Assembly (NCBI GenBank): GCA_964486505.1
Contig: CAZAMC010000001.1
Location: 26,748-90,747 of the forward strand
Source: an uncultured Gammaproteobacteria bacterium
GTDB taxonomy: Bacteria > Patescibacteriota > Patescibacteriia > PEXW01
DNA: 64,000 nt
Reading direction: 5' to 3'
The translations under genes were made by a program, and so were the position numbers. Positions within the stretch are counted from its first letter, which is position 1. Each line of letters starts with the position of its first letter. Positions 5,729 through 63,791 of the stretch are shown here, in pieces. A model generated the notes under the pieces. The model saw nothing but the letters and a program-made list of their open reading frames with translations, was not told the DNA's origin and searched no databases.

Positions 5729-5745
5729 GTATTCTGCATCCACCT

Positions 5746-39985: not shown

Positions 39986-39993
39986 GCACGTAC

Positions 39994-49818: not shown

Positions 49819-50354
49819 GGGATTGTGCCCGCTAGAGTGAGGGTTGCGCTTTCCTCGCTTGCCCGTTGGAGGGAGAAGGTGTTGACGAGCATGTACGCTG
49901 GTTGAATTTCAATATCCCGCAAGAAGGCCAGAACATTCTCGGTGCTGCCGGTAATGTTTAAGGAAAAATCCCGTTCTTCAACCGTGAATACGCCCGGTCG
50001 GGTGGTTGGGTTTCGGAGAGGCTCTACGGGACTAAAGTCCTCTTCCAAATTGTGCTTTGCGGCAAGCTGCTCAAAGTACTCAACCAGCTTTAGGGCTTCG
50101 GTTCGGCTTGCGAAAGCGACATCAAGTTTTGCAGCTTTGCTTTGAATCTCGGCCACTTGTTTTTGCAATGTGGAGATGTTCTGCGCTTCTCGGCGATTGA
50201 GCTCCACAGTAAGGAGGGCATCTTCGATTGTTGCCGCGTTGCTACTGAGCTTGCCACCAAAGAAAATGAGAATGAGCCATACGAAAGCTCCAGTGACAAC
50301 GACACCGGCACCAACCCAGACCCAGAGAAGCGCTTTGGGGGAAAGGGTGCGCAT
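49809..50354 (-). CDS. pilO: Type IV pilus assembly protein PilO-like
   Basis: N-terminal TM, a coiled-coil region, then an alpha/beta domain. Position after pilN. Confidence 0.5.
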   Translation of the reverse strand: MRTLSPKALLWVWVGAGVVVTGAFVWLILIFFGGKLSSNAATIEDALLTVELNRREAQNISTLQKQVAEIQSKAAKLDVAFASRTEALKLVEYFEQLAAKHNLEEDFSPVEPLRNPTTRPGVFTVEERDFSLNITGSTENVLAFLRDIEIQPAYMLVNTFSLQRASEESATLTLAGTIPWH

Positions 50355-50355
50355 A

Positions 50356-50895
50356 CTACAAAGTGAATACTGCTTTCATAGTAACGTTGAAGTCAAGGTT
50401 GGTCCGCTTCGTCATGAGCGGGAACACGACATTTGAGAAGTAGTCGCTCTCTTCTAGGGTTTTTTCGTACGCGGTGTAGGCTTCGCGGGTCGAGGCTATG
50501 CCACTCACCGTGCACGTGCCGTTCTTCACTGAGCAGCTTACAGTGCGGAGGGAGATAGTGCTTGGCGTTATACTTGCCAGGTGCTGGATGATGGGGGTCC
50601 AGAATACGAATCGTTTTTGGACGTCCATGAGTGATCGGACTTGGCTGTTGACCCGTTGGGTAGTTTCCGCAATCGAACCCTGGGACTGCGCGTTGAGGAG
50701 CAGGGTAGACTGCGCTGCTTCTTGCTCAACTGCGCTGGCGCGGCTTTTTAGTTGGGCTAGGCCAATGCCTGCAATTGCGGTGCCAACGAGCGCAGTGAGT
50801 GCGAGGGTGAGTACAACGCCGCGAACAGCAGCCAGCAGCACATGCTCGCGTAAGGTCTGCTGCATCTGGGGGGAGGTGAGATTCAGTAGCATCAT
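50356..50895 (-). CDS. pilN: Type IV pilus assembly protein PilN-like
   Basis: Short cytoplasmic N-terminus, a TM segment, then a periplasmic coiled coil. Directly follows pilM. Confidence 0.55.
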   Translation of the reverse strand: MMLLNLTSPQMQQTLREHVLLAAVRGVVLTLALTALVGTAIAGIGLAQLKSRASAVEQEAAQSTLLLNAQSQGSIAETTQRVNSQVRSLMDVQKRFVFWTPIIQHLASITPSTISLRTVSCSVKNGTCTVSGIASTREAYTAYEKTLEESDYFSNVVFPLMTKRTNLDFNVTMKAVFTL

Positions 50896-51971
50896 AGGTC
50901 TTTTGGTGCGGTCAGCGGCAATCGTTGAGCGCCTCGGAGAGCAAGACCTAGGGCAGTCAGGTAAGAGGCGCCTACGGACTTTACTTCTTTCGTGGGGGTG
51001 GAGATATTTTCGGGCCAGCTCCCAACCTGGACAGGGAGCGACAAGGTAGATTGCATGAGGGGGCTGAGGGCGATGAGTTGTGAGCCGCCGCCCACCAGGG
51101 TAATGTCCTGGACCTTTGCTTCCTTCGGTGCATGTTCTTCGTAGTAGCTAATGACTTCGAGCATGCGCTGGAAGAGCGGCCGAAACTCCGTTTCGAGAAT
51201 GCTCCGGACCGCGCCCTTGCCCCGTTTGGGGTCAAGGCCACAAATACGCTTTGCCTGTTCGGCTTCGTCGGCCGTTAATCCGAGCTTGGTTTGGAGGAGC
51301 GCGGTAAGCCCATTCCCCGAGAGAGGCATTGTGGATGCGTACGCTACCAGGTCGCCTTCCGTAATGATTATGCCTGTGCGAGTTGCACCCAGATCGATAA
51401 TCATGTGTCCGCCGGCTGCTTGGCGGGTATTGAGCACGACGCGGCTGAGCGCGGCGGATTCAGGTTCAAACACAATGGGGATAATCCCTGCTGCTTGGAA
51501 GGCAGCGATGTACCCTTCCACCAGTAACTGGGGGGCAACGCTCACTATAACTCGTGCCAGCTTATCGTTGGGTTGGGGCTGGGTAACGTACTGCCAGTCG
51601 ACGTAGGCCTCGTCGAGCTTCATAGGAATGTTTTGGACCAGACCTTGCTGGAGGGACGCCGAGAAAGGCGTGTCAGCGATGAGCGGAACGTCAATAATCT
51701 TTGTAAAAGTTTTTCGTTCGGGCAAGCAAATGATTGCCGCCCGAGAACTTGGATGACGGTGGTGAGGCTTGCTAATGAGGTCCTTTAGGACCGTTACCAT
51801 GGCTTGCTGGTCACGAACCTCGCCTTCCACAATGGTTTTATCGGGGAGCGGACGTGCACTTATTGAACGCAGCGAAAAACCTTTTCCGCGCGGCACGAGC
51901 TGCACCATGCGAACGACCTGGTCGCTCACATCGATGCCCATGGCATTACTGTAGGGGCGAAGCATGCTCAT
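50892..51971 (-). CDS. pilM: Type IV pilus assembly protein PilM (actin-like ATPase fold)
   Basis: MGIDVSDQVVRMVQL start. About 350 aa with ASKHA-like glycine motifs (DLGATRTGIII). Confidence 0.8.
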   Translation of the reverse strand: MSMLRPYSNAMGIDVSDQVVRMVQLVPRGKGFSLRSISARPLPDKTIVEGEVRDQQAMVTVLKDLISKPHHRHPSSRAAIICLPERKTFTKIIDVPLIADTPFSASLQQGLVQNIPMKLDEAYVDWQYVTQPQPNDKLARVIVSVAPQLLVEGYIAAFQAAGIIPIVFEPESAALSRVVLNTRQAAGGHMIIDLGATRTGIIITEGDLVAYASTMPLSGNGLTALLQTKLGLTADEAEQAKRICGLDPKRGKGAVRSILETEFRPLFQRMLEVISYYEEHAPKEAKVQDITLVGGGSQLIALSPLMQSTLSLPVQVGSWPENISTPTKEVKSVGASYLTALGLALRGAQRLPLTAPKDL

Positions 51972-51972
51972 G

Positions 51973-53190
51973 CTAGTTGATTTGGTCGGTTAACGAGTAA
52001 ATTGGCAGAATGACAGCGACCACGATGCCAGCAACGCCGCCGCCGAGGAGCAAGATGAGGATAGGTTCCAGAATAGAAGTTAGGTTCGCCATGATTTGGT
52101 CCACTTCTTCTTCGTAAAACTTGGCGATTTCTTCGCTTATTGTATCAAGAGTACCGCTCTCTTCGCCAACGGCAACCATTTGCGATACTACTGGGGGGTA
52201 GAGCTTTGGGCTGGTCATGAGCACCTTGGCAACGCTGGAACCCTTCTTGAGTTCTTCTGCCGTGCGCTCTAGCGACTGTCGGAAAACGACATTCCCAATT
52301 GTTCGAGAAATAATTTGGAACGTCTGTACAATTGGAATATCTGTCTTTAAGAGTGAACTTAAGTTTCGAGTGAAGCGTGCAAGGTTTATCTTCTTTAAAA
52401 TGGGACCAATAATTGGTAAGCGAAGAAGAAATTTATGCCAAAGTAATCGGCCTTTTGGAGTGTGGATCCACCACCGGAAAAGGAAAATAAGCCCAATTGT
52501 TCCGGGGATGATAAACGCGATGTAGTGGCGCAAGAAGTCTGAGAGAGCAATGAGAATTCGCGTTGGCAGGGGCAGGGTGCCGCCTGACTGGGTGAATATT
52601 TCTAAAAGTTTCGGGACCACCGCAACCATCATGACAAAGCCCAGGACAATCATAGCCACCACAACAATCGTCGGGTAGGTTAAGGCGCCCCGCACCTTCG
52701 CGACCAGCTGGTGGTCTTTCTTTAGCTGCACCGTGAGGCGCAAGAGCACCTCATCGAGTTTTCCCGATACTTCGCCTGCGGCCACCATGTTGACGAAGAG
52801 TTCGGGGAAGACCTTTGGGTGCTTGGCCAAGGAAGACGAAAGGGTTTCCCCGCCTTCAACGTCATGGGCAAGCTCTTGGATGATTCCCCGAAAACCCTTA
52901 TGTTCGGTTTGCTGGGTAAGGACGTCGAGGGCATGACCCAGGGAAAAACCCGTCCGGACCATGACCTGCAGGTTCTGTAGAAAAACAATTTTCTGCATGA
53001 CCGGCACCCCGCCAAAACTGATGTTCAGTGAGAACTTCTTTTTCTGCTGGACTGTCGTTGGGCGGCTACTCACGAGCGTAAGACCCCGCACCCGCAGCAA
53101 AGAAGCGAGAAAGTGTTCGTCTTTCGCGTCCTGTGCACCGTGGATGGTTGCGCCCTGCAGGTTACGGGCGACGTAGGAGTAGACGGGCAT
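51973..53190 (-). CDS. pilC: Type IV pilus inner-membrane platform protein PilC (GspF family)
   Basis: Two T2SS-F repeats, each followed by TM helices. 405 aa. Confidence 0.85.
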   Translation of the reverse strand: MPVYSYVARNLQGATIHGAQDAKDEHFLASLLRVRGLTLVSSRPTTVQQKKKFSLNISFGGVPVMQKIVFLQNLQVMVRTGFSLGHALDVLTQQTEHKGFRGIIQELAHDVEGGETLSSSLAKHPKVFPELFVNMVAAGEVSGKLDEVLLRLTVQLKKDHQLVAKVRGALTYPTIVVVAMIVLGFVMMVAVVPKLLEIFTQSGGTLPLPTRILIALSDFLRHYIAFIIPGTIGLIFLFRWWIHTPKGRLLWHKFLLRLPIIGPILKKINLARFTRNLSSLLKTDIPIVQTFQIISRTIGNVVFRQSLERTAEELKKGSSVAKVLMTSPKLYPPVVSQMVAVGEESGTLDTISEEIAKFYEEEVDQIMANLTSILEPILILLLGGGVAGIVVAVILPIYSLTDQIN

Positions 53191-53192
53191 GG

Positions 53193-54920
53193 TTACTCTT
53201 TAGTAACGCGGAGTACTTCTTCGATCGTCGTTATGCCGTACTTGGCCTTAATGAATCCGTCTTCGGCCATAGTGAGCATGCCCTGCTTCGCGGCGGCTCG
53301 CCGCAGGTCCTCGGTTGTCCCTTTATTCAATATGAGGTCAGCAATGTCGTGCGAAACCTCCATAATTTCGTAGATGCCAATACGGCCCTTGTAGCCTTCG
53401 TGGTTGCACTGCTTGCACCCCTTACCGCGGTAGAAGAGTAAGGACTCGATTGGCGCAGTTTCCGACATAATCGCCCCTTCACGGGCAAGCGTCTTCATGA
53501 TGAACTGGACGTCAAACTGCTTGTTGAGGTCTTCGACAGCTGCTTTGGAGAGCGTGTAACTTTGGATACAGTGAAGGCAAATTTTTCGGACCAGACGCTG
53601 GGCCATGAGAATGTTTGTGGTGGATGCGATCAGGAACGAGGGTACGCCCATTTCTCCAAGGCGGGGGAGCGCGGTAACGGCGTCATTGGTGTGCAACGTA
53701 GAAAGCACCAGGTGCCCAGTCATGGCCGCGTTCGCGGCAATTTCCGCAGTCTCGTTGTCACGGATTTCTCCAACCATAATGATGTTCGGGTCTTGGCGTA
53801 AAAGGGAGCGCAAGCCACCGGCAAAAGTAAAGCCGATTTTCGGGTTCACCTGGCTTTGGTTAACCCGGGGCATGCGGTACTCAATTGGGTCTTCCACGGT
53901 TGAAATATTAACCTCGGGTTTATTGAGGATGTTGAGTACCGTGTAGAGGGTTGTGGTTTTCCCTGAACCGGTTGGCCCAGTGACCAAGATGATTCCGTGG
54001 GGCTTCTTAATATTGCGCTTGAGCATTTCTAAGGGCTTTGGCTGCAAGCCAAGTTGCTCCAGGGAGAGTACCTGCGCGGACTCATTGAGCAAACGGAGGA
54101 CCGCTTTTTCACCGTCGTACACCGGCAGGATGGAAACCCGGAAAGCGACTTTGTAGTCTTTTGTGGTTATGGTAAAGCGGCCATCTTGCGGGAGTCGGTG
54201 TTCGTCTATTTTGAGGTTTGAGAGAATTTTAATACGGGCAATGATCCCCGATTGCGTAGTTTTCGGAAGGGTCATGACCTGCTTCAACCGGCCATCAATG
54301 CGATACCGGACGACGAGGTCGGCCTCCTGCGGTTCGATGTGGATGTCTGAGGCGCTTTCGAATATCGCATACTCCAACATACTGTCGACGATGCGGATAA
54401 TTGGCACATCCTCAGCAAGTTCAGTGAGCTTCTTCCCACCCTCAGCGTCGGTATCGACTGGCTCCCTCGCGATTTCCTTGAAGGTAGCGGATAAACCTTT
54501 GTGGAACTGTGACAGCGCATTCTTAATGCTTGACGGGGTGGTAATGGCAATGTCGGCTTGGAGGCCCGTTTTTTTCTTAATGAACTCAATGGTCTGGAGG
54601 TCACGGGGGTCCAATGTGGCGAGCTTTATGCGCTTAGGGTCCATGTCGTAGGCCACGACTTGGTGGACTTGTACCAGCGGTTCGGGGACGGCTTCCAGCA
54701 CGTCTTTACGAATGGTGACTTGGCGCAAGTCTATGAACGGCAGCTTGTAGTACGACGCTATGGTTTCGTACAATACGTTCTCAGACAAAATGTTATGGTC
54801 AACAAGGTACCGGTCTAAATCAAGGTTGGCTTTTTCTGCAGCCGAAACCGCCCCCGAAAGATCTGCTTCGGGGAGGACATTGGCATTGGTGAGGATTTTT
54901 GCCAGGGTCGCCGACTTCAT
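53193..54920 (-). CDS. pilB: Type IV pilus assembly ATPase PilB (GspE family) with N-terminal GSPII_E_N domain
   Basis: Walker A GPTGSGKTT, tetracysteine CLHC...CKQC and the N-terminal MshEN-like domain. Confidence 0.9.
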   Translation of the reverse strand: MKSATLAKILTNANVLPEADLSGAVSAAEKANLDLDRYLVDHNILSENVLYETIASYYKLPFIDLRQVTIRKDVLEAVPEPLVQVHQVVAYDMDPKRIKLATLDPRDLQTIEFIKKKTGLQADIAITTPSSIKNALSQFHKGLSATFKEIAREPVDTDAEGGKKLTELAEDVPIIRIVDSMLEYAIFESASDIHIEPQEADLVVRYRIDGRLKQVMTLPKTTQSGIIARIKILSNLKIDEHRLPQDGRFTITTKDYKVAFRVSILPVYDGEKAVLRLLNESAQVLSLEQLGLQPKPLEMLKRNIKKPHGIILVTGPTGSGKTTTLYTVLNILNKPEVNISTVEDPIEYRMPRVNQSQVNPKIGFTFAGGLRSLLRQDPNIIMVGEIRDNETAEIAANAAMTGHLVLSTLHTNDAVTALPRLGEMGVPSFLIASTTNILMAQRLVRKICLHCIQSYTLSKAAVEDLNKQFDVQFIMKTLAREGAIMSETAPIESLLFYRGKGCKQCNHEGYKGRIGIYEIMEVSHDIADLILNKGTTEDLRRAAAKQGMLTMAEDGFIKAKYGITTIEEVLRVTKE

Positions 54921-54977: not shown

Positions 54978-56834
54978 TCAATGAGCAGGTCTAGGCGCTC
55001 GGCCGTCGCGGAAGTCGAAGACATTAATGGACCCGCCGATTCGGGCATCGGGCTCGTACGCATTGAGCCACCAGTATGCTCCGTCCTGCGAAAGCTGGCT
55101 GGTAATGCTAATGGCAACGACGCAGTTTACGTCGGCGGGGGAATGGGGATCTGCAGCTGTGGGCAAGTAGCGGTAGTCAATGCCGTAGTACGTAAGGTCA
55201 GCTTGGCCAAAATAGCTCATGCACACGAAGGGGATGTTCCGCTCGCGCAGGTAGTGTGCAAGCCGTTTGAGGTCTTGGCCCCAATCAATGTTCGAATCCA
55301 CGAGGTAGCGAGAACCTTGCGAAGAACCCCCGGCAAACTCTGAGAAGTACGACGTGTAGGCCGGGTAGGCGAGCGCACTCGTAAGAATGTAGATCAGCAC
55401 AATGCCCCCCAGCACGATGCGGAGGAAACGCTTTGTATGGCTAAATGCATTTGTGAGGAATGTGCCAATGCCCACGAAAAACGCTGCGTACACCGGGAAG
55501 ATGTGGCGAATGCCAAGGTTCAGGCTGCTGGACATGCTCCAGAATAAGTACGCAATCGCTGCACCCATGATCAGGCTGTAGCCAGTCGCAAACTTTTGCT
55601 GTTTAACCAGGCGTGCGTACAGAAAGCCGGCAAAGGCCAGGAGACTCATCACCAACGTAGCGGCGGGCAGTTTGACAAAGAGTGCAAAGGGGAAGTACCA
55701 CCACCAGCCAAAGTTCGAGTACATGCCATTGAGGTAGGCGAGGTGGCCCCAGTACTCGTGGTTGACCACGAGGGCGAAGCCTTTGAGGTACGACCATGCG
55801 GGTACAGGGGTGTGTAGAACGAGGGTTTGCACTGTCCGGCCCAGACGGGTAGTGGGATCAGTCAGGCGAATGACCCGCTGGACAGCTGACGGCTGCTGCT
55901 CGATGCGATCTTGGGTGACGACACGCTCGCGTTCAGCGAGAAGGGCGGCTACCCACGGGTCATCGTTGCCCGTGCGAACTTGCCCAAAGTAGCAGACCAT
56001 CGCCGTAACAATTGTTCCAACTATGCTCACGAGGAGAATGGTTGCTGATTTGCGCAGTCCCACTCGGAAATTTCGTGATTGCCTAACAAAGAAGATGAAC
56101 GTTGCGCAGACGGCGATGATGAGTAAGAAGGCGGCAGAGAATTTGGCCATTTGGGCCAGACCGAATACTAGGGCAAAGATGAGTAACCGTTTGCGGGTCC
56201 AGTTTTCGAAGAGCCTCACTAAAAGGTAGAGGGTTGCGGCGTACCCAAGGGTCACGCCGACGTCAGTAGTGATGTAGCGTCCGTGGGCTAGGAAATTTGG
56301 ATCGAGAGCATACCACCCAAGGGTAAAAAGCCCACCCACGTCACCCGCGAGTTTCCGACCCCAGAGGTACAGCATGAGCCCCAGTCCTGCACCAAGCGCC
56401 ACCATGGCCAGCCTGCCCAGGAAGAGGAGCTGATCAGCATTATTCCCGCTGTGGTAAAGGAAATCGCGGGCAAATGCCCACTGGTTGCCTTCTTGCCACG
56501 ATGGTGCATCCAGCGGAATCGTTGGTCGAGCCAGGAGGACTGGTACCGCCGCAAGCAGCTTGATGAGTGGCGGGTGCTCCTCGTTGAGGCGGAAATCTCG
56601 GGTTACCCAGTAACTTACACCGGAAGCGAGGTGGACACCTTCGTCTACGGTCTGGACTTCCTCCCGCATCGAGGTAATCTGGAGTGTAGCCATGACCCCT
56701 ATAAGCACACCAACAATAACTCGGCGTACCCAAGGCCGAAGGTGGATCCACCGGGCAGTTGCGCCGCTTTGGAAATCGTCAGAACGCTGGCCTGCCATTG
56801 GGTCAGGTATTGGATTAGCGCTTGCGTGGGGCAT
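54978..56834 (-). CDS. Large polytopic membrane protein, GT-C-like (PMT/ArnT-like candidate glycosyltransferase)
   Basis: 618 aa with about 12 TM helices. The first loop carries a DEG motif (VQTVDEGVHLASG). Confidence 0.45.
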   Translation of the reverse strand: MPHASANPIPDPMAGQRSDDFQSGATARWIHLRPWVRRVIVGVLIGVMATLQITSMREEVQTVDEGVHLASGVSYWVTRDFRLNEEHPPLIKLLAAVPVLLARPTIPLDAPSWQEGNQWAFARDFLYHSGNNADQLLFLGRLAMVALGAGLGLMLYLWGRKLAGDVGGLFTLGWYALDPNFLAHGRYITTDVGVTLGYAATLYLLVRLFENWTRKRLLIFALVFGLAQMAKFSAAFLLIIAVCATFIFFVRQSRNFRVGLRKSATILLVSIVGTIVTAMVCYFGQVRTGNDDPWVAALLAERERVVTQDRIEQQPSAVQRVIRLTDPTTRLGRTVQTLVLHTPVPAWSYLKGFALVVNHEYWGHLAYLNGMYSNFGWWWYFPFALFVKLPAATLVMSLLAFAGFLYARLVKQQKFATGYSLIMGAAIAYLFWSMSSSLNLGIRHIFPVYAAFFVGIGTFLTNAFSHTKRFLRIVLGGIVLIYILTSALAYPAYTSYFSEFAGGSSQGSRYLVDSNIDWGQDLKRLAHYLRERNIPFVCMSYFGQADLTYYGIDYRYLPTAADPHSPADVNCVVAISITSQLSQDGAYWWLNAYEPDARIGGSINVFDFRDGRAPRPAH

Positions 56835-56854
56835 AGTGATCAGCGGCTATCCGC

Positions 56855-57105
56855 CAGGAACAGAGAATATCGTCACTCATTATAGCATTCCGTTTGGCAT
56901 TGATGGCATTGGCTCCTGGTGGCAAGTCTGGCTGGTGCCGGGCATTGCCACCGTCATGACAATCCTTTGCATTATTGGTATGCTGCCTGTCCTGCGTCGT
57001 CGTCAACCCAAGACCATTGGCCTCCTGCACAGCGCCGCGGTGTTCTGTAATTTCGGTATCGCTTGGGGGCTCTTCCTCCTGCGTATCCAGCAAGTGCCCG
57101 TATGA
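56855..57105 (+). CDS. Small membrane protein, DUF1648-like (hypothetical; GTG start)
   Basis: IVTHYSIPFGIDGIGS resembles the DUF1648 P..H....G..D motif. Two TM helices. Confidence 0.25.
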
Positions 57106-58151
57106 TTGATGAAGTTCCGGTTATCCGCATTTTTTTTCTCGCCACCTTCGCGTTCATTGCGGCGATGCTCTTTACGCCATTGTGGGCGGGTTTTCTGTAC
57201 CGCTACCAGCTGGGCAAGAAAATTCGCGCCGCTGCCGACGCGCCAATCTTTGCGAAATTCCACGAGAAGAAGTCTGGGACACCCACAATGGGTGGTGTCA
57301 TCATTTGGTTAACTGCCGCTGTCATAGCGCTGTTGTTCTTCATCATTCGGCAAATTGTACCGAGCGGCTTTTGGCATGAGTTGAATTTCCTTACTCGTCA
57401 GCAGACATGGCTGCCTATTGGGGCCCTTGTGGCGTCGGCGGTGGTTGGTTTGGTTGACGACTACTTCAATGTCCGGGGGTGGGGGCCCAAGGGCGGCGGA
57501 TTGCAGGTTCGGCACAAACTGCTCATCTACACCGTTATTGCCGTCGTGGGAGCGTGGTGGTTCTTCTCAAAACTTGGGTTTAGTACCATGCACGTTCCCT
57601 TCCTGGGGAATTTTGAAATTGGCTTGTGGTATATCCCGCTTTTCATCATCGTCATTGTTTCGACGGCGTTTTCAGTAAATGAGATCGACGGCCTTGATGG
57701 TCTGGCCGGGGGTACGCTCCTTGCTGCTTTCGTGGCGTTTGGCGCCATCGCTTTTGCGCAAGGACGGTATGAACTCGCTACCTTCTGCGCCGTCATTGCC
57801 GGTGGCCTGCTCGCGTTCCTGTGGTTCAACATCCCGCCCGCCCGGTTCTTCATGGGGGACACCGGGGCCATGTCTTTAGGCGTTACCTTAGGCATAGTAG
57901 CCATGCTCACGAATACCGCTCTCCTCCTGCCAATTATTGGGCTGCTGTTTGTTTTGGAGTCGGGGAGCGTCATTGTACAGCTCACCTCGAAGCGTTTGCG
58001 TGGGAAAAAGGTATTCCTCTCCGCGCCCCTGCACCACCACTTGGAAGCAATTGGTTGGCCGGAGTCAAAAATTGTCATGCGCTTCTGGGTCATCGCCGCG
58101 GTCATGGCCGTCATTGGCGTGGTCCTCTACCTCATCGACCGGACGCTCTAA
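57102..58151 (+). CDS. mraY: Phospho-N-acetylmuramoyl-pentapeptide transferase
   Basis: KKSGTPTMGG, a DD motif (VDDYFNV) and about 10 TM helices. Confidence 0.9.
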   Translation: MIDEVPVIRIFFLATFAFIAAMLFTPLWAGFLYRYQLGKKIRAAADAPIFAKFHEKKSGTPTMGGVIIWLTAAVIALLFFIIRQIVPSGFWHELNFLTRQQTWLPIGALVASAVVGLVDDYFNVRGWGPKGGGLQVRHKLLIYTVIAVVGAWWFFSKLGFSTMHVPFLGNFEIGLWYIPLFIIVIVSTAFSVNEIDGLDGLAGGTLLAAFVAFGAIAFAQGRYELATFCAVIAGGLLAFLWFNIPPARFFMGDTGAMSLGVTLGIVAMLTNTALLLPIIGLLFVLESGSVIVQLTSKRLRGKKVFLSAPLHHHLEAIGWPESKIVMRFWVIAAVMAVIGVVLYLIDRTL

Positions 58152-58193: not shown

Positions 58194-60281
58194 ATGCAGG
58201 TTTTTCAGTCAGCGATTCTGCGTACACTGCCAGGAATTACACACGGGACGGCGCCAAAATCAGCGCAGCCGCTCACTTTTTCCGGTCACACCCGGCAGAG
58301 TGTTCGGCGCTCGCGCGCGCATTTTGCGAAACAGCTTCATGTTAACGTTCATCACCTTACCTTAGGGCGGCAGGTGCATGGTACAAAGGTGCGGATTGTT
58401 GACGACGAGCAGTGTGGTGCAGGCGCCCTTGACCCGGCTACGTACCTTCCGCGCACTGACGGTCTGCTTACCCAGCGACCGGGAATCGCTTTGGGAATCT
58501 TTACCGCTGACTGCGTACCGGTGCTTTTGGCGGATCCCCGTACGGGTTGGATTGGTGCGCTCCATGTGGGTTGGCGGGGTGCTGTGAACGGGATCGCGGC
58601 CGTGGCCTTGGCGGCACTGCAGAAGCACGGTGTACGCATGCAGGATGTCCGGGTGTGGCTGGGTCCAGCAATCTGCGGTGATTGTTATTCGGGCCACGAT
58701 CGGCAGCGCACGCAAAAGTTAGCCCGCGCTTTTGGCGGTCACGGTGTAGGGCGCCATGCAGGGCATGTGCACGTCGATCTTCGACAGGGGTTGCACTGGC
58801 AGCTTCGTCGCTCTGGCATTCTCACCCGGCATATCGAAATTTCTCCGGTTTGCACTTTTGAGGAACGGCGACTCCCTTCCCACCGCCGAGAAGGGCACGG
58901 TCACGCAAATACCTTGACCGTCATCTCACGTGCTTCATTGCCGGGTGATGTTCGAGGTTTACGGGTAGCAGTCCTTGGTCTGGGCGTACAGGGTGGGGGA
59001 GAAGCCAGTGTCCGGGCAGCGGCGCTCGGGCACGCGCAGTCAGTTTTGGCTCTTGATGAAAAGCCAGCGGCGGTTTTCAAGGACGTCAGGCGGCGGCTGA
59101 GAGCGCTGAACATCGCGTATGCGTTTGGGCCCACGGTTCGTACGGCGTCGGCGAAAGTTGATTGGGTGGTGAAGAACCCTGGCGTACCGCTCACTCATCC
59201 CTACCTCAAGCGGGCCCGGCAGGCAGGAGCAAGTCTGGTAACCGATATTGGCTGGTTTCGCGCGTTGCACGACAACCCGGTCATTGCGGTGACGGGTACC
59301 AAGGGGAAGTCTACTGTCGTTTCGTGGCTAGCGCATGTGCTCCGGGGGGTTCACCGGCGCGTAGAACTGGCGGGAAATGTTCGGCGGTCCCCATTGGACA
59401 TTCAGAAATTGCAGCCTGAGACGCCGGTGATTCTCGAGTTATCATCATTCCAACTCGAAGCACTGGAAGTTCCCCTGGCGGCAAAACTCGCGATTGTTAC
59501 TAATCTCTACCCCGACCATTTGAATCGACACCGGTCTATGCGGACGTATGCGCGGGTGAAGTCCAGGTTGTCGGCCGGGCAGGATCGGCACAGCACACTC
59601 ATCCTGCCACTGGATAGTGAGTGGCCACAGTTTGGAAATATTCAATCTCCGGCGAAACGATTTTTTTCGAGCCTCGTATCCCAGCCAAAGTCAGATGCCT
59701 ACATCCGTAATGGGTGGATTGTGCTCCACGGTCGGCGCCTTGTGCAAACTCGCACACTCCGCATTCAGGATGTGGGTTCGCTCCGTAATGCGGTTACCGT
59801 TGCTCTTGCGGCTGCTGCTTGGGGCGTGCCCCGAAGGGTCATTACGAAGCGGCTCTGCACCTTCACGGGGGTGCCGGAACGTTTCCAGGTCATACGCAGG
59901 TATAGGGGGCGGACCTTTATCAACAATACAACCGCGACGAACCCAATCTCAGCAGCCTTTGGCATGCAGAGCGTGGCCGGCTCGTTCATACTCATTGCGG
60001 GGGGCGCTGACAAGGGCTTACCACTTGGCCCTATGTTGCATGCAGCAAAGCGTTCTCGGTGTGTGGTGCTCTTACCTGGTTCAGCGACCAAATTACTCAA
60101 GAAGCGCTTAGAGTGTCCCACGGTGGCTGCAACTTCCATGCGTGAAGCTGTGCGAGTAGCCTGGAAGCAGTCTCAAACCGGAGATACTATTCTGCTTTCG
60201 CCAGGCGCTGCGAGTTTTGGCATATTTACGAATGAATTTGATCGGGGCGCGCAGTTCACCACTGCAGTCCGCGCATTATGA
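58194..60281 (+). CDS. murD: Fusion protein: N-terminal YfiH/PgeF (DUF152, peptidoglycan-editing factor / purine nucleoside phosphorylase family) domain plus C-terminal UDP-N-acetylmuramoylalanine--D-glutamate ligase MurD
   Basis: - **PgeF part, residues 1-~240:** FTADCVPVLLAD...GALHVGWRG is the PgeF/YfiH signature, followed by a His/Cys-containing C-terminal region.
- **MurD part, residues ~245-695:** VAVLGLGVQGG, the P-loop AVTGTKGKSTV and the C-terminal ligase domain.
A single uninterrupted frame. Confidence 0.8.
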   Translation: MQVFQSAILRTLPGITHGTAPKSAQPLTFSGHTRQSVRRSRAHFAKQLHVNVHHLTLGRQVHGTKVRIVDDEQCGAGALDPATYLPRTDGLLTQRPGIALGIFTADCVPVLLADPRTGWIGALHVGWRGAVNGIAAVALAALQKHGVRMQDVRVWLGPAICGDCYSGHDRQRTQKLARAFGGHGVGRHAGHVHVDLRQGLHWQLRRSGILTRHIEISPVCTFEERRLPSHRREGHGHANTLTVISRASLPGDVRGLRVAVLGLGVQGGGEASVRAAALGHAQSVLALDEKPAAVFKDVRRRLRALNIAYAFGPTVRTASAKVDWVVKNPGVPLTHPYLKRARQAGASLVTDIGWFRALHDNPVIAVTGTKGKSTVVSWLAHVLRGVHRRVELAGNVRRSPLDIQKLQPETPVILELSSFQLEALEVPLAAKLAIVTNLYPDHLNRHRSMRTYARVKSRLSAGQDRHSTLILPLDSEWPQFGNIQSPAKRFFSSLVSQPKSDAYIRNGWIVLHGRRLVQTRTLRIQDVGSLRNAVTVALAAAAWGVPRRVITKRLCTFTGVPERFQVIRRYRGRTFINNTTATNPISAAFGMQSVAGSFILIAGGADKGLPLGPMLHAAKRSRCVVLLPGSATKLLKKRLECPTVAATSMREAVRVAWKQSQTGDTILLSPGAASFGIFTNEFDRGAQFTTAVRAL

Positions 60282-61375
60282 CCACCCTTCGTCAACCCGA
60301 CTCCCTTTTCCTGGCGCTCATCGTTCTCCTGTGCGTATTTGGCATTATTATTTTTTCTTCCGCCAGCAGCGTTGTCTCATTCCAGTCTCTGGGTGACCCA
60401 AATGCGCTGTTGAAGAAACAGGCAATTGCCTTGGTCCTCGGCCTATTGCTCATGGTGGTTACCATGCGACTAGATTTGCGTTTGCTGGAGAAATTCGCCA
60501 CACCCCTCTTTGTTTTTTCCGTTGCCCTCATGCTCCTGCCGTTTGTTCCCGGTTTGGGGCCTGAACTGCTGGGTGCTAAGCGCTGGGTAGTCCTCGGCGG
60601 TTTTTTCTTCCAACCTTCGGAACTGGTAAAGCTCACCATCGTTGTCTTTCTCGGTCGGTGGCTTACGGGCTTGCGCATCGACCGTGCGGAGCCGCGAGAA
60701 ACCCTTTTCCCCCTCCTGGGCATTCTTGGAACAGTTGTCCTCATCTTGGTCCTTCAGCCTGACTTAGGCACCGCGATTGTCATCATGGCGGTGAGCATAA
60801 TCTTGTACTTTGTGGTGGGGGCGCCAGTGAAGCACTTTGCATGGATCGCCGCCATTACCGCGATTGGGCTGGCGTTACTCATCCAGGTAGCTCCGTACCG
60901 CGCTGCTCGACTCACCGTTTTCCTCAATCCAAGTGACGACACCCAGGGCTCTGCGTACCACATTAACCAGTCGCTCCTCGCTATTGGTTCGGGTGGCCTT
61001 TTTGGGCGGGGTCTCGGGCACTCTATTCAGAAGTTCAACTACCTGCCCGAAGCAGAAGGGGATTCTATTTTTGCCATCGCCGCAGAGGAACTCGGTTTCT
61101 TCCTGAGCGCGGGCCTCATTGCCCTTTACGTGGCAGTGGTTTGGCGAGGTGTCCATCTAGCCCGACGGGCGTCAGACAGCTACGTGAAACTCGTCATTAC
61201 TGGCATCGTGTGCTGGTTTGGGATGCAGGCTTTTATAAATATTGGAGCACTCACGTCAGTTTTGCCGCTTACCGGTGAACCTTTGCCATTCATTTCCAAC
61301 GGCGGGTCATCACTGGTCATTTCATTAGTCGCGGCAGGTATCCTCTTGAATTACTCACGGACTATTCGCGTATGA
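60278..61375 (+). CDS. ftsW: Peptidoglycan glycosyltransferase FtsW (SEDS family)
   Basis: 365 aa with 10 TM helices and SEDS motifs (GAKRWV, PSELVK and GGSSL near the C-terminus). Confidence 0.85.
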   Translation: MTTLRQPDSLFLALIVLLCVFGIIIFSSASSVVSFQSLGDPNALLKKQAIALVLGLLLMVVTMRLDLRLLEKFATPLFVFSVALMLLPFVPGLGPELLGAKRWVVLGGFFFQPSELVKLTIVVFLGRWLTGLRIDRAEPRETLFPLLGILGTVVLILVLQPDLGTAIVIMAVSIILYFVVGAPVKHFAWIAAITAIGLALLIQVAPYRAARLTVFLNPSDDTQGSAYHINQSLLAIGSGGLFGRGLGHSIQKFNYLPEAEGDSIFAIAAEELGFFLSAGLIALYVAVVWRGVHLARRASDSYVKLVITGIVCWFGMQAFINIGALTSVLPLTGEPLPFISNGGSSLVISLVAAGILLNYSRTIRV

Positions 61376-62424
61376 GCACTATTCTTTTGGTTGGGGGCGG
61401 GACGCTGGGATCGGTGAACCCATTGCTCGCTGTAGCCAGCGCACTCAAACGGGCAAAACCAGGAACGGTAGTGCATTTTTGGGGTTCACGGCGGGGGCTG
61501 GAGCGGCAGGTTGTGGGGGACGCCGGGATTCCATTCTCTGCAATTCCAGCTGGAAAGTTGCGACGGTACTTTTCACTTCGGACTCTTGTTGATGTTCCGG
61601 TCATTGCTTGGGCAACCCTTCTTGCCTGGACTCGGCTTCGCCGCCTGCACCCGGCTTTGGTTGTTTCGGCTGGAAGTTATGTTGCCGTGCCAGTGGCCTG
61701 GGCAGCGCGGGCGTTGCGCATCCCCGTCCTCTTGTACCAGCAAGACGCGACGCTCGGCCTTGCCAACCGGCTTATCGCCGGGGTTTCCCGGATCCGTACC
61801 GCCACAACGGAGCAGGCCGCGCATTTGCTCAAGCCTCCAGTTACGGTCGTTGGCTTTGCACTCCGAGCCGACCTCTATACCGGAGATCGTGATCGTGCGG
61901 CCGCCGCGTACGGCCTCGATGTACGTCGTCCAGCACTCCTAGTTATTGGCGGGAGTTCCGGCGCGCTAGGCATGAACCAGAAGTTTGGCGAAGCACTGCC
62001 GTTCCTCCACCCCGACCTTCAAGTTGTGCACATCACGGGGACTGGGAAGGAAATTCAGTTTCAGCGGAAGGGTTACGTGCAAATCCCTTTCACGAATGCG
62101 GCATTGCCAGACCTCTACGCCTTGGCCACGGTAGTGGTAAGCCGTGCGGGGAGTAATGTCCTGGCCGAATTGGTGGCGCTCCGAAAACCATTAGTCATCA
62201 TTCCTTTGCCCCACTCTCACCAAGTGCAGAATGCTGTCGTCTTTGAAGAGCGGGGTATTCCTGTGCGTGATCAAAACGCGGTGAGTGGTCAGTCATTGGC
62301 CTCTGACCTCAATGCACTATGCTTTGATCCGCAACAGCTTCAGAAGTTGAGCCAAGCCGTGTCATCCTTGTGGGATACTGATGGGGCCCACACACTGGTA
62401 GCGCTCATGAGCCCATACTTATGA
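61372..62424 (+). CDS. murG: UDP-N-acetylglucosamine--N-acetylmuramyl-(pentapeptide) pyrophosphoryl-undecaprenol N-acetylglucosamine transferase
   Basis: LLVGGGTLGSVNPLLAV matches the MurG N-terminus. 350 aa. Confidence 0.9.
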   Translation: MSTILLVGGGTLGSVNPLLAVASALKRAKPGTVVHFWGSRRGLERQVVGDAGIPFSAIPAGKLRRYFSLRTLVDVPVIAWATLLAWTRLRRLHPALVVSAGSYVAVPVAWAARALRIPVLLYQQDATLGLANRLIAGVSRIRTATTEQAAHLLKPPVTVVGFALRADLYTGDRDRAAAAYGLDVRRPALLVIGGSSGALGMNQKFGEALPFLHPDLQVVHITGTGKEIQFQRKGYVQIPFTNAALPDLYALATVVVSRAGSNVLAELVALRKPLVIIPLPHSHQVQNAVVFEERGIPVRDQNAVSGQSLASDLNALCFDPQQLQKLSQAVSSLWDTDGAHTLVALMSPYL

Positions 62425-63791
62425 ACCTCCACACCGCAAAGCATGTTCACTTCATAGGGATTGGAGGAATTGGCGTTTCTGCTATAGCCAAATGGTCTAT
62501 TGAGCGGGGGCTCGTGGTCTCGGGCAGTGATTTAACGGAATCACCTTCGGCAATGTGGCTTCGCCAACATGGTGCGCAGGTGCGGATTGGGCCTCACCAG
62601 GCTAGCGCTATACCAGAGTTGTGTGACCTCGTCGTTTGCTCTGTGGCGATACGGGCAAATAACCCCGAACGTCTCGAGGCCGAAAAACGCCGGATACCGG
62701 TTCTGCCCTACCCTGAAGCGCTGGCACAACTCTTCGAGCGGCACGTTGGCATTGCAGTGGCGGGTTCACATGGAAAGTCTACGACGACCGCTCTTCTCGG
62801 CTCGATTCTCACCGCTGCGCAACGTGACCCAACAGTTATTGTTGGAACGCGGGTGCGGGATTTTGGTGATACCAATGAGCGAATTGGCAAGGGCCAGGAG
62901 GTGCTCGTTGAAGCTGATGAGTACAACCAAGCGATTCTCTTCGTACAGCCGGAACACGCGGTTGTATTGAATGTCGACCATGAGCACGTTGATGTGTACC
63001 CCACGCTCGAAAAGCTGCAGAGCGCGTTTGGCCGATTTGTGGCTAGTGTTCCCTCAACGGGGAGTGTCACCCTTTGGGCACAGGATCCCAGTGTTGAGTT
63101 ACTACGAAAACGGGCACAAGGTACAGTCAAAACCTTTGGTTTTCAAGATGCTGACCTGGTTGCTGGAGAGGTCATTGCGTCCGCGGCTGGCACGTCTTTT
63201 ACCGTGCGGGGTCTTTACCGGGGAACCGTACAGACGAAGCTTTTTGGTGAACACAACGTTCGCAACATCCTCGCGGCAATGTGCGTGAGTCATAGCCTTG
63301 GTATTCCTTTTGATACCATTGTTCAGGCGGTGCAAGAATTTCCCGGTACCTGGCGACGGTTTGAAAACCGTGGCACCTGGCAGGGCGCCACGATTATTGA
63401 TGACTACGCGCACCACCCCACAGAACTTCGAGCAACCCTTGCGGCGGCTCGTCAGGCTTTCCCGGGCAAGCGAATAGTTTGTGTGTTCCAGCCGCACTTG
63501 CATAGCCGCACAAAAGCGTTTCTTAAAAATTTTGTGAAGGAGCTAGCGGTTGCTGATCGAGTTATCGTGGTGGAAGTGTACGACGTTGTCGGGCGTGAAG
63601 ATGGGGAACGAGTTTCGAGCCAGGAGATTGTTACCGCTCTTGGCGAGCAGGCCTCATATGCGGCAAAAGTTTTTGACGCCGTTGAAATACTACAAGCCGA
63701 AGTATCGTCATCCGACGTGGTGCTCACGGTTGGGGCGGGTGACATTACGCACTTTACCGAAATTGCCCGACATGAAAACCCTCCTCAGTGA
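62421..63791 (+). CDS. murC: UDP-N-acetylmuramate--L-alanine ligase
   Basis: VHFIGIGGIGVSAIA, the P-loop GSHGKSTTT and DDYAHHP. Confidence 0.9.
   Translation: MNLHTAKHVHFIGIGGIGVSAIAKWSIERGLVVSGSDLTESPSAMWLRQHGAQVRIGPHQASAIPELCDLVVCSVAIRANNPERLEAEKRRIPVLPYPEALAQLFERHVGIAVAGSHGKSTTTALLGSILTAAQRDPTVIVGTRVRDFGDTNERIGKGQEVLVEADEYNQAILFVQPEHAVVLNVDHEHVDVYPTLEKLQSAFGRFVASVPSTGSVTLWAQDPSVELLRKRAQGTVKTFGFQDADLVAGEVIASAAGTSFTVRGLYRGTVQTKLFGEHNVRNILAAMCVSHSLGIPFDTIVQAVQEFPGTWRRFENRGTWQGATIIDDYAHHPTELRATLAAARQAFPGKRIVCVFQPHLHSRTKAFLKNFVKELAVADRVIVVEVYDVVGREDGERVSSQEIVTALGEQASYAAKVFDAVEILQAEVSSSDVVLTVGAGDITHFTEIARHENPPQ

What the first reader, a model, noticed from the sequence alone, without database searches (positions are those of the whole stretch)
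58194..60281. PgeF (YfiH/DUF152) domain fused in-frame to MurD inside the mraY-murD-ftsW-murG-murC cluster
The first ~240 residues carry the signature of the YfiH/PgeF family (FTADCVPVLL..D...G..HVGWRG). The remainder is an unambiguous MurD, with Rossmann GLGxxG and the P-loop TGTKGKST.

PgeF is established as a peptidoglycan-editing enzyme that removes wrongly incorporated amino acids at position 1 of the stem peptide, that is, MurC errors. A covalent fusion to the next ligase in the pathway, located between mraY and ftsW, would physically couple proofreading to stem-peptide elongation. I do not recall this fusion being described.

It is one continuous 695-codon frame, not two adjacent genes.
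Basis: partly seen in the sequence, partly recalled or inferred. Interest (0 to 1): 0.75.

Follow-up and report, generated by a model that had tools for sequence, protein, structure and literature searches.

The report
Peptidoglycan proofreading enzyme fused to MurD
In one lineage of tiny-genome (Patescibacteria) bacteria, the enzyme that removes a wrongly added first amino acid from cell-wall precursors is joined in one protein to the enzyme that adds the second amino acid, an arrangement I found described in no searchable paper and which suggests a way to test whether error-checking and chain extension are coupled.

Summary
Window 58194-60281 (+) is one 695-codon ORF between mraY and ftsW-murG-murC. 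Residues 31-245 pass the Pfam DUF152 and NCBIfam PgeF cut-offs; residues 257-693 pass the MurD equivalog cut-off.

It is not an assembly artefact. Twenty further protein clusters (43-61% identity, 696-707 aa) from independent metagenomes carry the same fusion with a fixed-length junction and the same gene order. An exhaustive profile search of 1.84 billion representatives found six fusion-type representatives, so it is rare.

All residues shown experimentally to be needed for E. coli PgeF editing (H71, D89, D106, C107, H124, plus Q69) and the MurD catalytic set are conserved. One difference stands out: the arginine that clamps the substrate's free carboxylate (E. coli R235) is Asn/His in all 21 core fusions, but Arg in 31 of 33 stand-alone PgeFs.

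AlphaFold2 predicts a rigid body (pLDDT 96.7, pTM 0.92).

The most likely reading is a bifunctional editing amidase plus ligase acting on the same MurC product. Catalytic activity and kinetic coupling are inferred, not shown.

Searchable papers do not describe the fusion; public records name the proteins only as MurD.

Verdict: real, a new variant of a known kind, moderately interesting.

The parts
58194..60281 (+). pgeF::murD fusion gene, 695 codons plus stop
   Evidence: ORF list; Pfam and NCBIfam hits for both halves; 20 full-length homologous clusters.
58194..58931 (+). PgeF/YfiH (DUF152, Cu-oxidase_4) amidase domain, aa 1-246
   Evidence: PF02578 185.7 bits; TIGR00726 143.6 bits. Closest solved sequences are Geobacillus YlmD 1t8h/6t0y (E 7e-26). 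The fold matches 6dzd/1t8h/6t1b/7fbg with target-normalised TM-score 0.81-0.84.
58371..58379 (+). Q60-V-H62, equivalent to E. coli YfiH Gln69 (specificity determinant) and His71
   Evidence: Alignments A2 and pgef.aln; invariant in the 21 fusions; roles from PMC8844914.
58458..58460 (+). D89, equivalent to E. coli Asp89 of the Cys-His-Asp triad
   Evidence: conserved in 20 of 21 fusions; required for editing (PMC12280929).
58509..58514 (+). D106-C107, with C107 the catalytic nucleophile (TADC motif)
   Evidence: Read directly from the sequence; invariant; C107 and D106 are essential for editing in E. coli.
58563..58577 (+). H124-V-G-W127-R128: catalytic His plus the UDP-diphosphate contacts
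   Evidence: roles from PMC8844914.
58884..58886 (+). R231, equivalent to E. coli Arg228 (uracil/ribose/diphosphate contact)
   Evidence: invariant in the family.
58908..58910 (+). N239, at the position of E. coli Arg235 (salt bridge to the substrate's free carboxylate), not conserved here
   Evidence: Asn in 20 and His in 1 of the 21 core fusions, against Arg in 31 of 33 closest stand-alone PgeFs. Role of R235 from PMC8844914.
58932..58961 (+). Connector between the two enzymes, aa 247-256; fixed length, no disordered linker
   Evidence: One 1-residue indel in 21 sequences and 58% mean identity over aa 236-262; pLDDT 97-98 over aa 241-260.
58962..60278 (+). [quoted passage not shown]
   Evidence: TIGR01087 323.6 bits against a 211.95 cut-off; PDB MurD sequences at E 1e-44 to 1e-35; target-normalised TM-score 0.86-0.89 to ligand-bound MurD structures.
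58977..59000 (+). GLGVQGGG, glycine-rich loop of the MurD N-terminal (UDP-binding) domain
   Evidence: Sequence; aligned to E. coli GLGLTG.
59292..59315 (+). TGTKGKST, the ATP-binding P-loop (K372, S373, T374)
   Evidence: translation; invariant; aligned to E. coli G114-K115-S116-T117.
59559..59561 (+). K456, equivalent to E. coli MurD Lys198 (the carbamoylated lysine; role from my own knowledge of MurD structures)
   Evidence: invariant.
57102..58151 (+). mraY, upstream neighbour (the ORF is listed from TTG 57063; the likely start is ATG 57102)
   Evidence: PF00953 and MraY_sig1; start inferred from comparison with L081 mraY.
60278..61375 (+). ftsW, whose start overlaps the fusion's stop codon (ATGA)
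   Evidence: PF01098 325 bits; coordinates.
61372..62424 (+). murG
   Evidence: PF03033 and PF04101.
62421..63791 (+). murC, the ligase whose errors PgeF corrects
   Evidence: Mur_ligase, Mur_ligase_M and Mur_ligase_C domains.

Best explanation
The ORF is a genuine, conserved bifunctional gene of a Patescibacteria (CPR) lineage that includes or adjoins Candidatus Kerfeldbacteria.

The N-terminal 246 residues are a PgeF/YfiH-type Cys-His-Asp amidase. The C-terminal 439 residues are a complete MurD. Both enzymes take the same metabolite, the MurC product UDP-MurNAc-amino acid.

Most likely the PgeF half hydrolyses mis-ligated UDP-MurNAc-L-Ser/Gly back to UDP-MurNAc, while the MurD half adds D-Glu to UDP-MurNAc-L-Ala. 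In E. coli, PgeF works about 900- to 3000-fold less well once D-Glu has been added, so editing has to happen before MurD commits the precursor. Putting the two activities in one rigid polypeptide fixes their ratio at 1:1, guarantees co-expression within the mraY-ftsW-murG-murC operon, and places the check next to the commitment step.

Shown here: domain identity, intact catalytic residues in both halves, equal purifying selection on both halves and on the junction, recurrence, conserved synteny, a single origin for the core family, and a confident compact predicted structure.

Inferred: that the amidase is active on UDP-MurNAc-Ser/Gly, and that the fusion changes the kinetics (proximity or partitioning) rather than only the expression.
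For: Identity of the two halves:
- The curated family cut-offs that assign the two halves (Pfam DUF152, NCBIfam PgeF and MurD) are passed.
- The folds match solved PgeF/YlmD and MurD structures.

Catalytic residues:
- Residues required for editing in E. coli (H71, D89, D106, C107, H124; PMC12280929), the specificity residue Q69 and the UDP contacts W127/R128/R228 (PMC8844914) map to H62, D89, D106, C107, H124, Q60, W127, R/K128 and R231. These are invariant or nearly so in 21 fusion proteins.
- The MurD catalytic and substrate residues K372, S373, T374, N395, E415, H442, K456, R563, T582, K607 and S674 are conserved.

Recurrence and selection:
- Twenty further full-length clusters at 43-61% identity come from independent metagenomes.
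- Synteny is the same in relatives at 45-49% identity and in the deeper fusions P0125 and P0126.
- The PgeF half (51% mean pairwise identity) is as conserved as the MurD half (53%), and the connector has a fixed length.
- The MurD halves of the core family form one clade with 100% bootstrap support.

Structure and biochemical context:
- AlphaFold2 gives pLDDT 96.7 and pTM 0.92, with no low-confidence linker.
- E. coli activities are UMS 274,084 against UMSE 89, and UMA 23,451 against UMAE 27 nmol/min/mg, so editing precedes MurD.
- The window holds no second pgeF or murD.
Against: - The arginine that forms a salt bridge with the substrate's free carboxylate (E. coli R235) is Asn or His in all 21 core fusions. 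R235A costs E. coli YfiH about 9-fold in activity, so substrate handling may differ.
- The PgeF equivalog score is only just above its cut-off (143.6 against 141.15).
- No biochemical data exist for any member.
- In E. coli no PgeF-MurD interaction was detected, so physical coupling is not a general requirement of editing.
- One lineage nested inside the family (P0022) has lost the PgeF domain, so the fusion is dispensable.
- A MurG-MurB fusion occurs in a related genome, which suggests a general tendency towards gene fusion in these small genomes.
- I could not inspect model coordinates, so the relative position of the two active sites is unknown.
Confidence: 0.6

Rival explanations
1. Fusion of convenience. 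Both halves are active enzymes with their ordinary functions. The covalent link has no kinetic consequence and arose by neutral gene fusion or genome streamlining, serving at most co-expression.
For: - Other peptidoglycan-gene fusions occur in the same group of organisms: MurG-MurB in L091, alpha/beta-hydrolase-MurD and GrpB-MurD.
- NCBIfam already curates bifunctional MurE/MurF, MurC/Ddl and MurF/Alr proteins.
- E. coli PgeF and MurD do not detectably interact.
- A nested lineage lost the domain.
Against: - The connector has a fixed length and is conserved, and it is predicted with pLDDT 97-98 within a model of pTM 0.92. That fits a selected, rigid interface better than a passive tether.
- pgeF is not found next to murD in any of 80 diverse MurD loci, so this is not a trivial read-through of commonly adjacent genes.
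- The substrate-clamp arginine changed specifically in the fused family.
Confidence: 0.25
2. The N-terminal domain has changed job. It might act on a different substrate (for example UDP-MurNAc-dipeptide or another MurNAc amide), or carry out the weak purine-nucleoside phosphorylase chemistry of the family. It might also serve as a UDP-MurNAc-binding module that feeds or regulates MurD.
For: - The R235 carboxylate clamp is lost in all core members.
- The position equivalent to the MurNAc-stacking Tyr227 is variable.
- The equivalog score is borderline.
- The DUF152 family has several reported activities, and the mBio authors propose sensor roles for members with a displaced arginine.
Against: - The full catalytic set needed for editing, but dispensable for PNP activity, is invariant across the family. 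This argues for a retained Cys-dependent amidase.
- The specificity residue Gln and the UDP contacts are kept.
- R235A YfiH is still active.
- A conserved His or Lys two residues upstream of N239 could replace the arginine.
Confidence: 0.13
3. Assembly or gene-calling artefact: an indel merged two adjacent genes in this contig.
For: One cluster member (P0123, 441 aa) is a MurD-only gene call.
Against: - That member lies in an error-rich contig in which mraY, ftsW, murG and murC are also fragmented, and the PgeF part is there too, broken by frameshifts.
- At least 24 independent full-length fusions from different samples and assemblers share the in-frame, conserved junction.
Confidence: 0.01

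Closest known systems
Stand-alone PgeF/YfiH (E. coli) and YlmD (Geobacillus, Bacillus): peptidoglycan editing factor, DUF152/PF02578, TIGR00726
   Same: Same fold (target-normalised TM-score 0.81-0.84). Same catalytic Cys-His-Asp plus His/Asp set, Gln specificity residue and UDP contacts. Passes the family cut-offs.
   Different: Covalently fused to MurD instead of being a 230-280 aa single-domain protein. The carboxylate-clamp Arg235 is replaced by Asn. The gene lies between mraY and ftsW, not near rluD/clpB (E. coli) or in ftsZ-ylmD-ylmE-sepF-divIVA (PMC5943314).
Canonical MurD (TIGR01087) in the dcw cluster
   Same: Three-domain Mur ligase with P-loop, catalytic His/Glu/Lys and D-Glu-binding Thr/Lys/Ser conserved. 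Its position between mraY and ftsW is the same as in E. coli.
   Different: Carries a 246-residue N-terminal amidase domain. E. coli K319 and F422 are Thr and Glu here; the same holds in P0022 (unfused) and P0027 (alpha/beta-hydrolase-MurD), which lack the PgeF domain, so this is a lineage trait.
Known bifunctional Mur enzymes (MurE/MurF NF008896, MurC/Ddl NF011171, MurF/alanine racemase NF008897)
   Same: Fusion of two enzymes of the cytoplasmic peptidoglycan-precursor pathway into one polypeptide.
   Different: Those join two synthetic steps, or a step and its substrate supplier. This one joins a hydrolytic proofreading enzyme to a synthetic step. No PgeF/MurD bifunctional model appeared among the NCBIfam hits.
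Cis-editing domains of aminoacyl-tRNA synthetases (for example AlaRS editing of Ser/Gly), an analogy drawn by the PgeF authors
   Same: A hydrolytic domain that removes Ser or Gly mistakenly used in place of Ala, carried on the same polypeptide as a ligase of the pathway.
   Different: Here the editor is fused to the next enzyme (MurD), not to the error-making one (MurC). There is no homology. Substrate shuttling between the sites is not shown.
LACC1/FAMIN, the vertebrate multi-domain DUF152 protein
   Same: The other known case where DUF152 is one domain of a larger protein.
   Different: In LACC1, DUF152 is the C-terminal domain, it lacks editing activity (abstract), and its Gln and Arg determinants are changed or displaced. 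The partner domain is unrelated to Mur ligases.

Membership tests
PgeF / YfiH / DUF152 (PF02578, TIGR00726) | Sequence score above the curated family cut-offs | tested here: met
   PF02578 185.7 bits against 22.9. TIGR00726 143.6 against 141.15, a narrow margin. The deeper fusions P0125 and P0143 score 144.5 and 141.7.
PgeF / YfiH / DUF152 (PF02578, TIGR00726) | Conserved H-C-H triad plus D89 and D106, each required for editing in E. coli (PMC12280929) | tested here: met
   H62, C107, H124, D89 and D106 are present. All are invariant in the 21 fusions except D89, which is conserved in 20 of 21; requirement.
PgeF / YfiH / DUF152 (PF02578, TIGR00726) | Specificity-determinant Gln (E. coli Q69) and UDP-MurNAc contacts (W127, R128, R228) | tested here: met
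   Q60, W127, R/K128 and R231 are conserved; roles. The Tyr227 position is variable (H/A/F/R/V).
PgeF / YfiH / DUF152 (PF02578, TIGR00726) | [quoted passage not shown] | tested here: not met
   Asn in 20 and His in 1 of the 21 core fusions, against Arg in 31 of 33 stand-alone PgeFs; P0125 keeps Arg. R235A retains about 11% activity in E. coli, so this is a substrate-binding feature rather than a catalytic one.
PgeF / YfiH / DUF152 (PF02578, TIGR00726) | DUF152 fold | tested here: met
   The AlphaFold2 model (pLDDT 96.7) superposes on 6dzd, 1t8h, 6t1b, 6t0y and 7fbg with target-normalised TM-score 0.81-0.84 and rmsd 1.9-3.4 A.
PgeF / YfiH / DUF152 (PF02578, TIGR00726) | Selective hydrolysis of UDP-MurNAc-L-Ser/Gly over UDP-MurNAc-L-Ala | not testable with these tools
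   Requires an enzyme assay.
MurD (TIGR01087) | Equivalog score above the cut-off, over the full model length | tested here: met
   323.6 bits against 211.95, model positions 1-440 of 441.
MurD (TIGR01087) | ATP P-loop, catalytic Glu/His, carbamoylated Lys and D-Glu-binding Thr/Lys/Ser (E. coli K115, S116, T117, N138, E157, H183, K198, T321, K348, S415; residue roles from my own knowledge of the E. coli MurD structures) | tested here: met
   K372, S373, T374, N395, E415, H442, K456, T582, K607 and S674 are conserved. E. coli K319 and F422 are not conserved, and the same holds in P0022 and P0027, which lack the PgeF domain.
MurD (TIGR01087) | Three-domain Mur-ligase fold | tested here: met
   Target-normalised TM-score 0.86-0.89 to ligand-bound MurD (1uag, 2jff, 4uag, 8dp2) and 0.59 to open apo forms.
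MurD (TIGR01087) | Position in the dcw cluster between mraY and ftsW | tested here: met
   same order in E. coli and in relatives.
MurD (TIGR01087) | ATP-dependent addition of D-Glu to UDP-MurNAc-L-Ala | not testable with these tools
   Requires an enzyme assay.

The most novel reading that the evidence does not exclude
The fused PgeF domain works as a true cis-editing site of MurD, comparable to the editing domains of aminoacyl-tRNA synthetases. In this reading the precursor bound by the UDP-binding N-domain of MurD is sampled by the adjoining amidase pocket without being released. The family-wide replacement of the carboxylate-clamp arginine reflects this altered, MurD-dependent way of presenting the position-1 carboxylate. 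As a corollary, the unrelated alpha/beta-hydrolase domain found at the same position in sister lineages (P0027, P0387) would be a non-homologous replacement doing the same job.
Probability: 0.12. Interest if true: 0.8.

Novelty: new variant of a known kind. Interest (0 to 1): 0.55.

Why it matters
PgeF was established as the proofreader of MurC errors only recently (2017-2025), and its family still carries competing annotations (laccase, purine nucleoside phosphorylase).

A conserved natural fusion to MurD is independent genomic ("Rosetta stone") support that the bacterial role of this fold lies at the UDP-MurNAc-monopeptide step.

The fusion also gives a concrete system for a question the PgeF authors raised but could not answer in E. 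coli: does editing act in physical conjunction with the neighbouring ligases?

The rigid predicted architecture and the family-specific loss of the carboxylate clamp are directly testable by enzymology and structure determination.

On the practical side, public records name these proteins only "MurD", so the editing function is invisible in annotation-based metabolic reconstructions of Patescibacteria.

Tried and rejected
- **Genome scan:** None of the 80 loci kept carries the fusion, so it gave no taxonomy for the clade. The loci later served as a negative control for pgeF-murD adjacency.
- **Exact look-up of P0001:** not on record, so the source record and organism name of the window remain unknown.
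- **PgeF-only search:** searching with the PgeF half alone did not return the fusion family, not even the identical protein. It therefore says nothing about other PgeF architectures and was used only to collect stand-alone PgeFs.
- **The 441-aa 'split' cluster member P0123:** considered as a natural fission and rejected, because the whole locus is riddled with frameshifts.
- **AFDB fold search:** the library was unavailable, so UniProt entries with the same architecture could not be listed.
- **Pre-fusion state:** a stand-alone pgeF next to murD was not found in 80 diverse loci.
- **Rfam scan of the window:** nothing found.
- **Alpha/beta-hydrolase of P0027:** sequence characterisation gave only generic esterase-type matches, so the 'analogous editor' idea stays speculative.
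- **First Biopython bootstrap run:** timed out and was replaced by a faster script.
Full report
**Observation.**
- Window 58194-60281 (+) is a single 695-codon ORF.
- Pfam places Cu-oxidase_4/DUF152 at aa 31-237 (185.7 bits) and the three Mur-ligase domains at aa 258-670; of these, MurD-like_N (22.2 bits) is below its 27-bit gathering score.
- NCBIfam places the MurD equivalog at aa 257-693 (323.6 bits, cut-off 211.95). It places the PgeF equivalog at aa 33-245 (143.6 bits, cut-off 141.15).
- The gene lies between mraY and ftsW-murG-murC. Its stop codon overlaps the ftsW start.
- The window holds no second pgeF or murD.

**Not an artefact.**
- A search of about 5.8 billion proteins returned the identical protein plus 20 further clusters. 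These are 43-61% identical, 696-707 aa long, cover 100% of the query, and all carry PF02578 plus Mur-ligase domains. They come from NCBI, JGI, ENA and Logan assemblies.
- In their alignment the junction (...NTLTVIxRxAxPxDLRGKRVxVFGLGxQGGGE...) is in frame and conserved. It has a single one-residue indel.
- The only MurD-only member of one of these clusters (P0123) sits in a contig where mraY, ftsW, murG and murC are also broken. The PgeF part is present there but frameshifted.

**Distribution and history.**
- Source names are 'Patescibacteria group bacterium' or 'bacterium'. All are annotated simply as MurD.
- Relatives at 45-49% identity share the neighbourhood pilM/N/C/B - PMT_2 glycosyltransferase | small membrane ORF - mraY - fusion - ftsW - murG - murC - murB - HPF - secA.
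- A profile search that read every one of 1.84 billion 50%-identity representatives found six full-length fusion-type hits. Three represent the core family. The other three are the more divergent P0125, P0126 and P0143. By comparison, 13,599 representatives reached E <= 1e-30.
- All three divergent proteins contain PF02578 plus Mur-ligase domains. P0125 and P0143 were also scanned against NCBIfam and pass the PgeF and MurD cut-offs.
- P0125 and P0126 share the core synteny. P0143 has a Glu/Asp-racemase gene upstream and falls outside the CPR MurDs in the tree, so it may be an independent fusion.
- Fusions whose MurD half is very divergent could fall below the top-150 list, so the count is a lower bound.
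- In a neighbour-joining tree of MurD halves (60 sequences, 448 columns, 100 bootstraps) the 21 core fusions form one clade with 100% support.
- The unfused 473-aa MurD of Ca. Kerfeldbacteria CG08 (P0022) is nested inside that clade with P0015 and P0021, also at 100% support.
- P0022 has the same synteny. Its first ~27 residues resemble the N-terminus of the fusions ('MLFNM.VF..KK') and a remnant of the PgeF C-terminus ('RNLTS'), and they run straight into the junction motif 'YDLRGKKVAIFGLG'. This looks like a secondary in-frame deletion of the PgeF domain. The peptide evidence alone is weak; the tree carries the argument.
- None of 80 diverse MurD loci has a stand-alone pgeF within 10 kb.
- The known genomic link of stand-alone PgeF/YlmD to the division cluster is at the ftsZ-ylmD-ylmE-sepF-divIVA end. 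I saw that arrangement for P0331, and it is described for Streptomyces (PMC5943314).

**Is each half competent?**
- The literature defines what editing needs. PgeF cleaves UDP-MurNAc-L-Ser/Gly but spares L-Ala at low enzyme concentration. H71, D89, D106, C107 and H124 are each required for editing but dispensable for the weak PNP activity (PMC12280929).
- Q69 hydrogen-bonds the Ser hydroxyl. W127, R128 and R228 hold the UDP moiety. R235 forms a salt bridge with the free carboxylate (PMC8844914).
- Aligned to E. coli YfiH fetched from MG1655, the window protein has Q60, H62, D89, D106, C107, H124, W127, R128 and R231. These are invariant or nearly so in the family.
- The exception is R235. It is Asn in 20 and His in 1 of the 21 core fusions. 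It is Arg in 31 of 33 of the closest stand-alone PgeFs and in the deep fusion P0125.
- R235A lowers E. coli activity on UDP-MurNAc-L-Ser from 274,084 to 31,495 nmol/min/mg. An Arg-less domain can therefore still work. A conserved His or Lys two residues upstream might compensate (inference).
- The MurD half keeps the P-loop, N395, E415, H442, K456, R563, T582, K607 and S674.
- The PgeF half is as conserved as the MurD half (51% against 53% mean pairwise identity). This argues against a decaying domain.

**Structure.**
- With a 109-sequence alignment, AlphaFold2 gives mean pLDDT 96.7 and pTM 0.92. Confidence is 97-98 across residues 241-260, and there is no disordered linker.
- Such a pTM for a 695-residue protein implies a confidently placed PgeF domain relative to MurD. 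I could not see coordinates or PAE, so whether the two active sites face each other is untested.
- Foldseek against the PDB matches the C-terminal part best to ligand-bound, closed MurD (target-normalised TM-score 0.86-0.89). It matches the N-terminal part to YfiH/YlmD/PgeF structures (0.81-0.84).
- No solved chain spans both halves (query-normalised TM-score at most 0.57).
- By sequence, position 239 (the R235 equivalent) is only about 23 residues upstream of the glycine-rich loop of the MurD UDP-binding domain. Proximity of the two substrate sites is therefore plausible, but it is inferred.

**Mechanism.**
- Both enzymes use the MurC product. In E. coli, PgeF activity falls about 900- to 3000-fold once D-Glu has been added (23,451 to 27 for L-Ala; 274,084 to 89 for L-Ser). 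The MurD step therefore effectively locks in the first residue.
- Free PgeF also hydrolyses the correct L-Ala precursor at about one-twelfth of the Ser rate. It loses discrimination when in excess. The PgeF:MurD ratio therefore matters.
- A fusion fixes that ratio at 1:1, ensures co-expression in the operon, and places the check beside the commitment step.
- I consider this the best explanation (confidence 0.6). Catalysis and coupling remain inferred.
- Rivals:
  - a neutral or streamlining fusion with no kinetic effect (0.25), supported by other fusions nearby such as MurG-MurB in L091;
  - a changed function of the N-terminal domain (0.13);
  - an assembly artefact (0.01).

**Comparison with what is known, and novelty.**
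- Full-text searches for PgeF with MurD, YfiH with fusion, DUF152 with Mur ligase, and CPR with MurD and fused found no description of this architecture.
- The 2025 PNAS paper explicitly tested for PgeF-MurC/MurD association in E. coli and saw none.
- NCBIfam has models for bifunctional MurE/MurF, MurC/Ddl and MurF/Alr, but none for PgeF/MurD appeared.
- The components and the genre (Mur-enzyme fusions) are known. Joining a hydrolytic proofreader to the next synthetic enzyme, with a family-specific change in the substrate clamp, is a new variant of a known kind.
- InterPro/UniProt architecture tables could not be consulted, so prior database-level awareness cannot be excluded.

**Verdict.** Interest is moderate (0.55). 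It is a clean natural experiment that supports the editing role of PgeF and makes the coupling question testable, but it is not a categorically new system.

Noticed in passing
L087 8001-10142 (P0027, Ca. Kerfeldbacteria GCA_016214565.1); also P0387: An unrelated alpha/beta serine hydrolase domain (Hydrolase_4/S33, S15, S9; GHSLGG nucleophile elbow) is fused to the N-terminus of MurD at the same position and in the same synteny as the PgeF domain. It recurs in a second cluster at 61% identity. The closest solved relatives are cinnamoyl/chlorogenic esterases, so its function is unknown. It could be a non-homologous replacement of the editor, but that is speculation.
   Followed up: partly
L089 8001-9422 (P0022, Ca. 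Kerfeldbacteria CG08, GCA_002774575.1): This unfused 473-aa MurD is nested within the fusion clade (100% bootstrap). Its N-terminus looks like the start of the fusion proteins joined directly to the junction motif, which suggests a secondary in-frame deletion of the PgeF domain.
   Followed up: partly
L091 11175-13041 (genome of P0125, GCA_016204645.1): The gene downstream of ftsW encodes MurG (both GT28 domains) fused to MurB (FAD_binding_4, start of MurB_C) and runs off the contig end. This is another peptidoglycan-enzyme fusion in a related genome.
   Followed up: partly
L092 2-3664 (P0143): A divergent PgeF-MurD fusion has a different context: an Asp/Glu racemase (the likely D-Glu supplier MurI) lies directly upstream and ftsW downstream. 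Its MurD half falls outside the CPR group in the tree, so it may be an independent fusion event.
   Followed up: partly
P0200 (600 aa), P0177 (855 aa), P0154 (1330 aa), P0231 (887 aa): Other MurD fusions surfaced in the exhaustive search: GrpB-MurD, MurD with a lactonase-like beta-propeller, and two long proteins with several matched stretches to the fusion profile.
   Followed up: no
window 56692-57105 (+): A small (~120-137 aa) hydrophobic ORF directly upstream of mraY is conserved in all relatives (35-44% identity; one relative has a weak DUF2127 hit). It overlaps the likely mraY start at 57102 by 4 nt. It occupies the position that murF has upstream of mraY in E. coli.
   Followed up: partly
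window 39946-41985, 41945-43555, 54978-56834: Three large PMT_2-type (dolichyl-phosphate-mannose-like) membrane glycosyltransferase genes lie in one 64-kb window. One of them is conserved divergently upstream of the mraY operon in all relatives.
   Followed up: no
window 49809-54920 (-): A type IV pilus/T2SS-like block is conserved next to the cell-wall operon across the whole clade. pilB (PilB-like ATPase, 53193-54920) and pilC (51973-53190) were identified by eye and by synteny with the relatives. The three ORFs at 49809-51971 lie where the relatives have pilM/pilN-like genes and were not scanned.
   Followed up: no
window 5707-7371 (+); 12591-14729 (+): A MurJ lipid II flippase gene, and a 712-aa S8 subtilase with FG-GAP repeats. 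No Rfam family (including tRNA) reaches threshold anywhere in the 64 kb.
   Followed up: no
L096 3204-3959 (P0272): A stand-alone PgeF homologue also lacks the R235 arginine ('TSNL' in place of 'TGRM'). It sits next to a phosphoglucosamine/phosphoglucomutase-type gene (PGM_PMM I-III).
   Followed up: no
Public annotation of P0004, P0007, P0014, P0015: NCBI and JGI name these 696-704 aa proteins only 'UDP-N-acetylmuramoyl-L-alanine--D-glutamate ligase'. The PgeF half is not reflected in any product name.
   Followed up: yes
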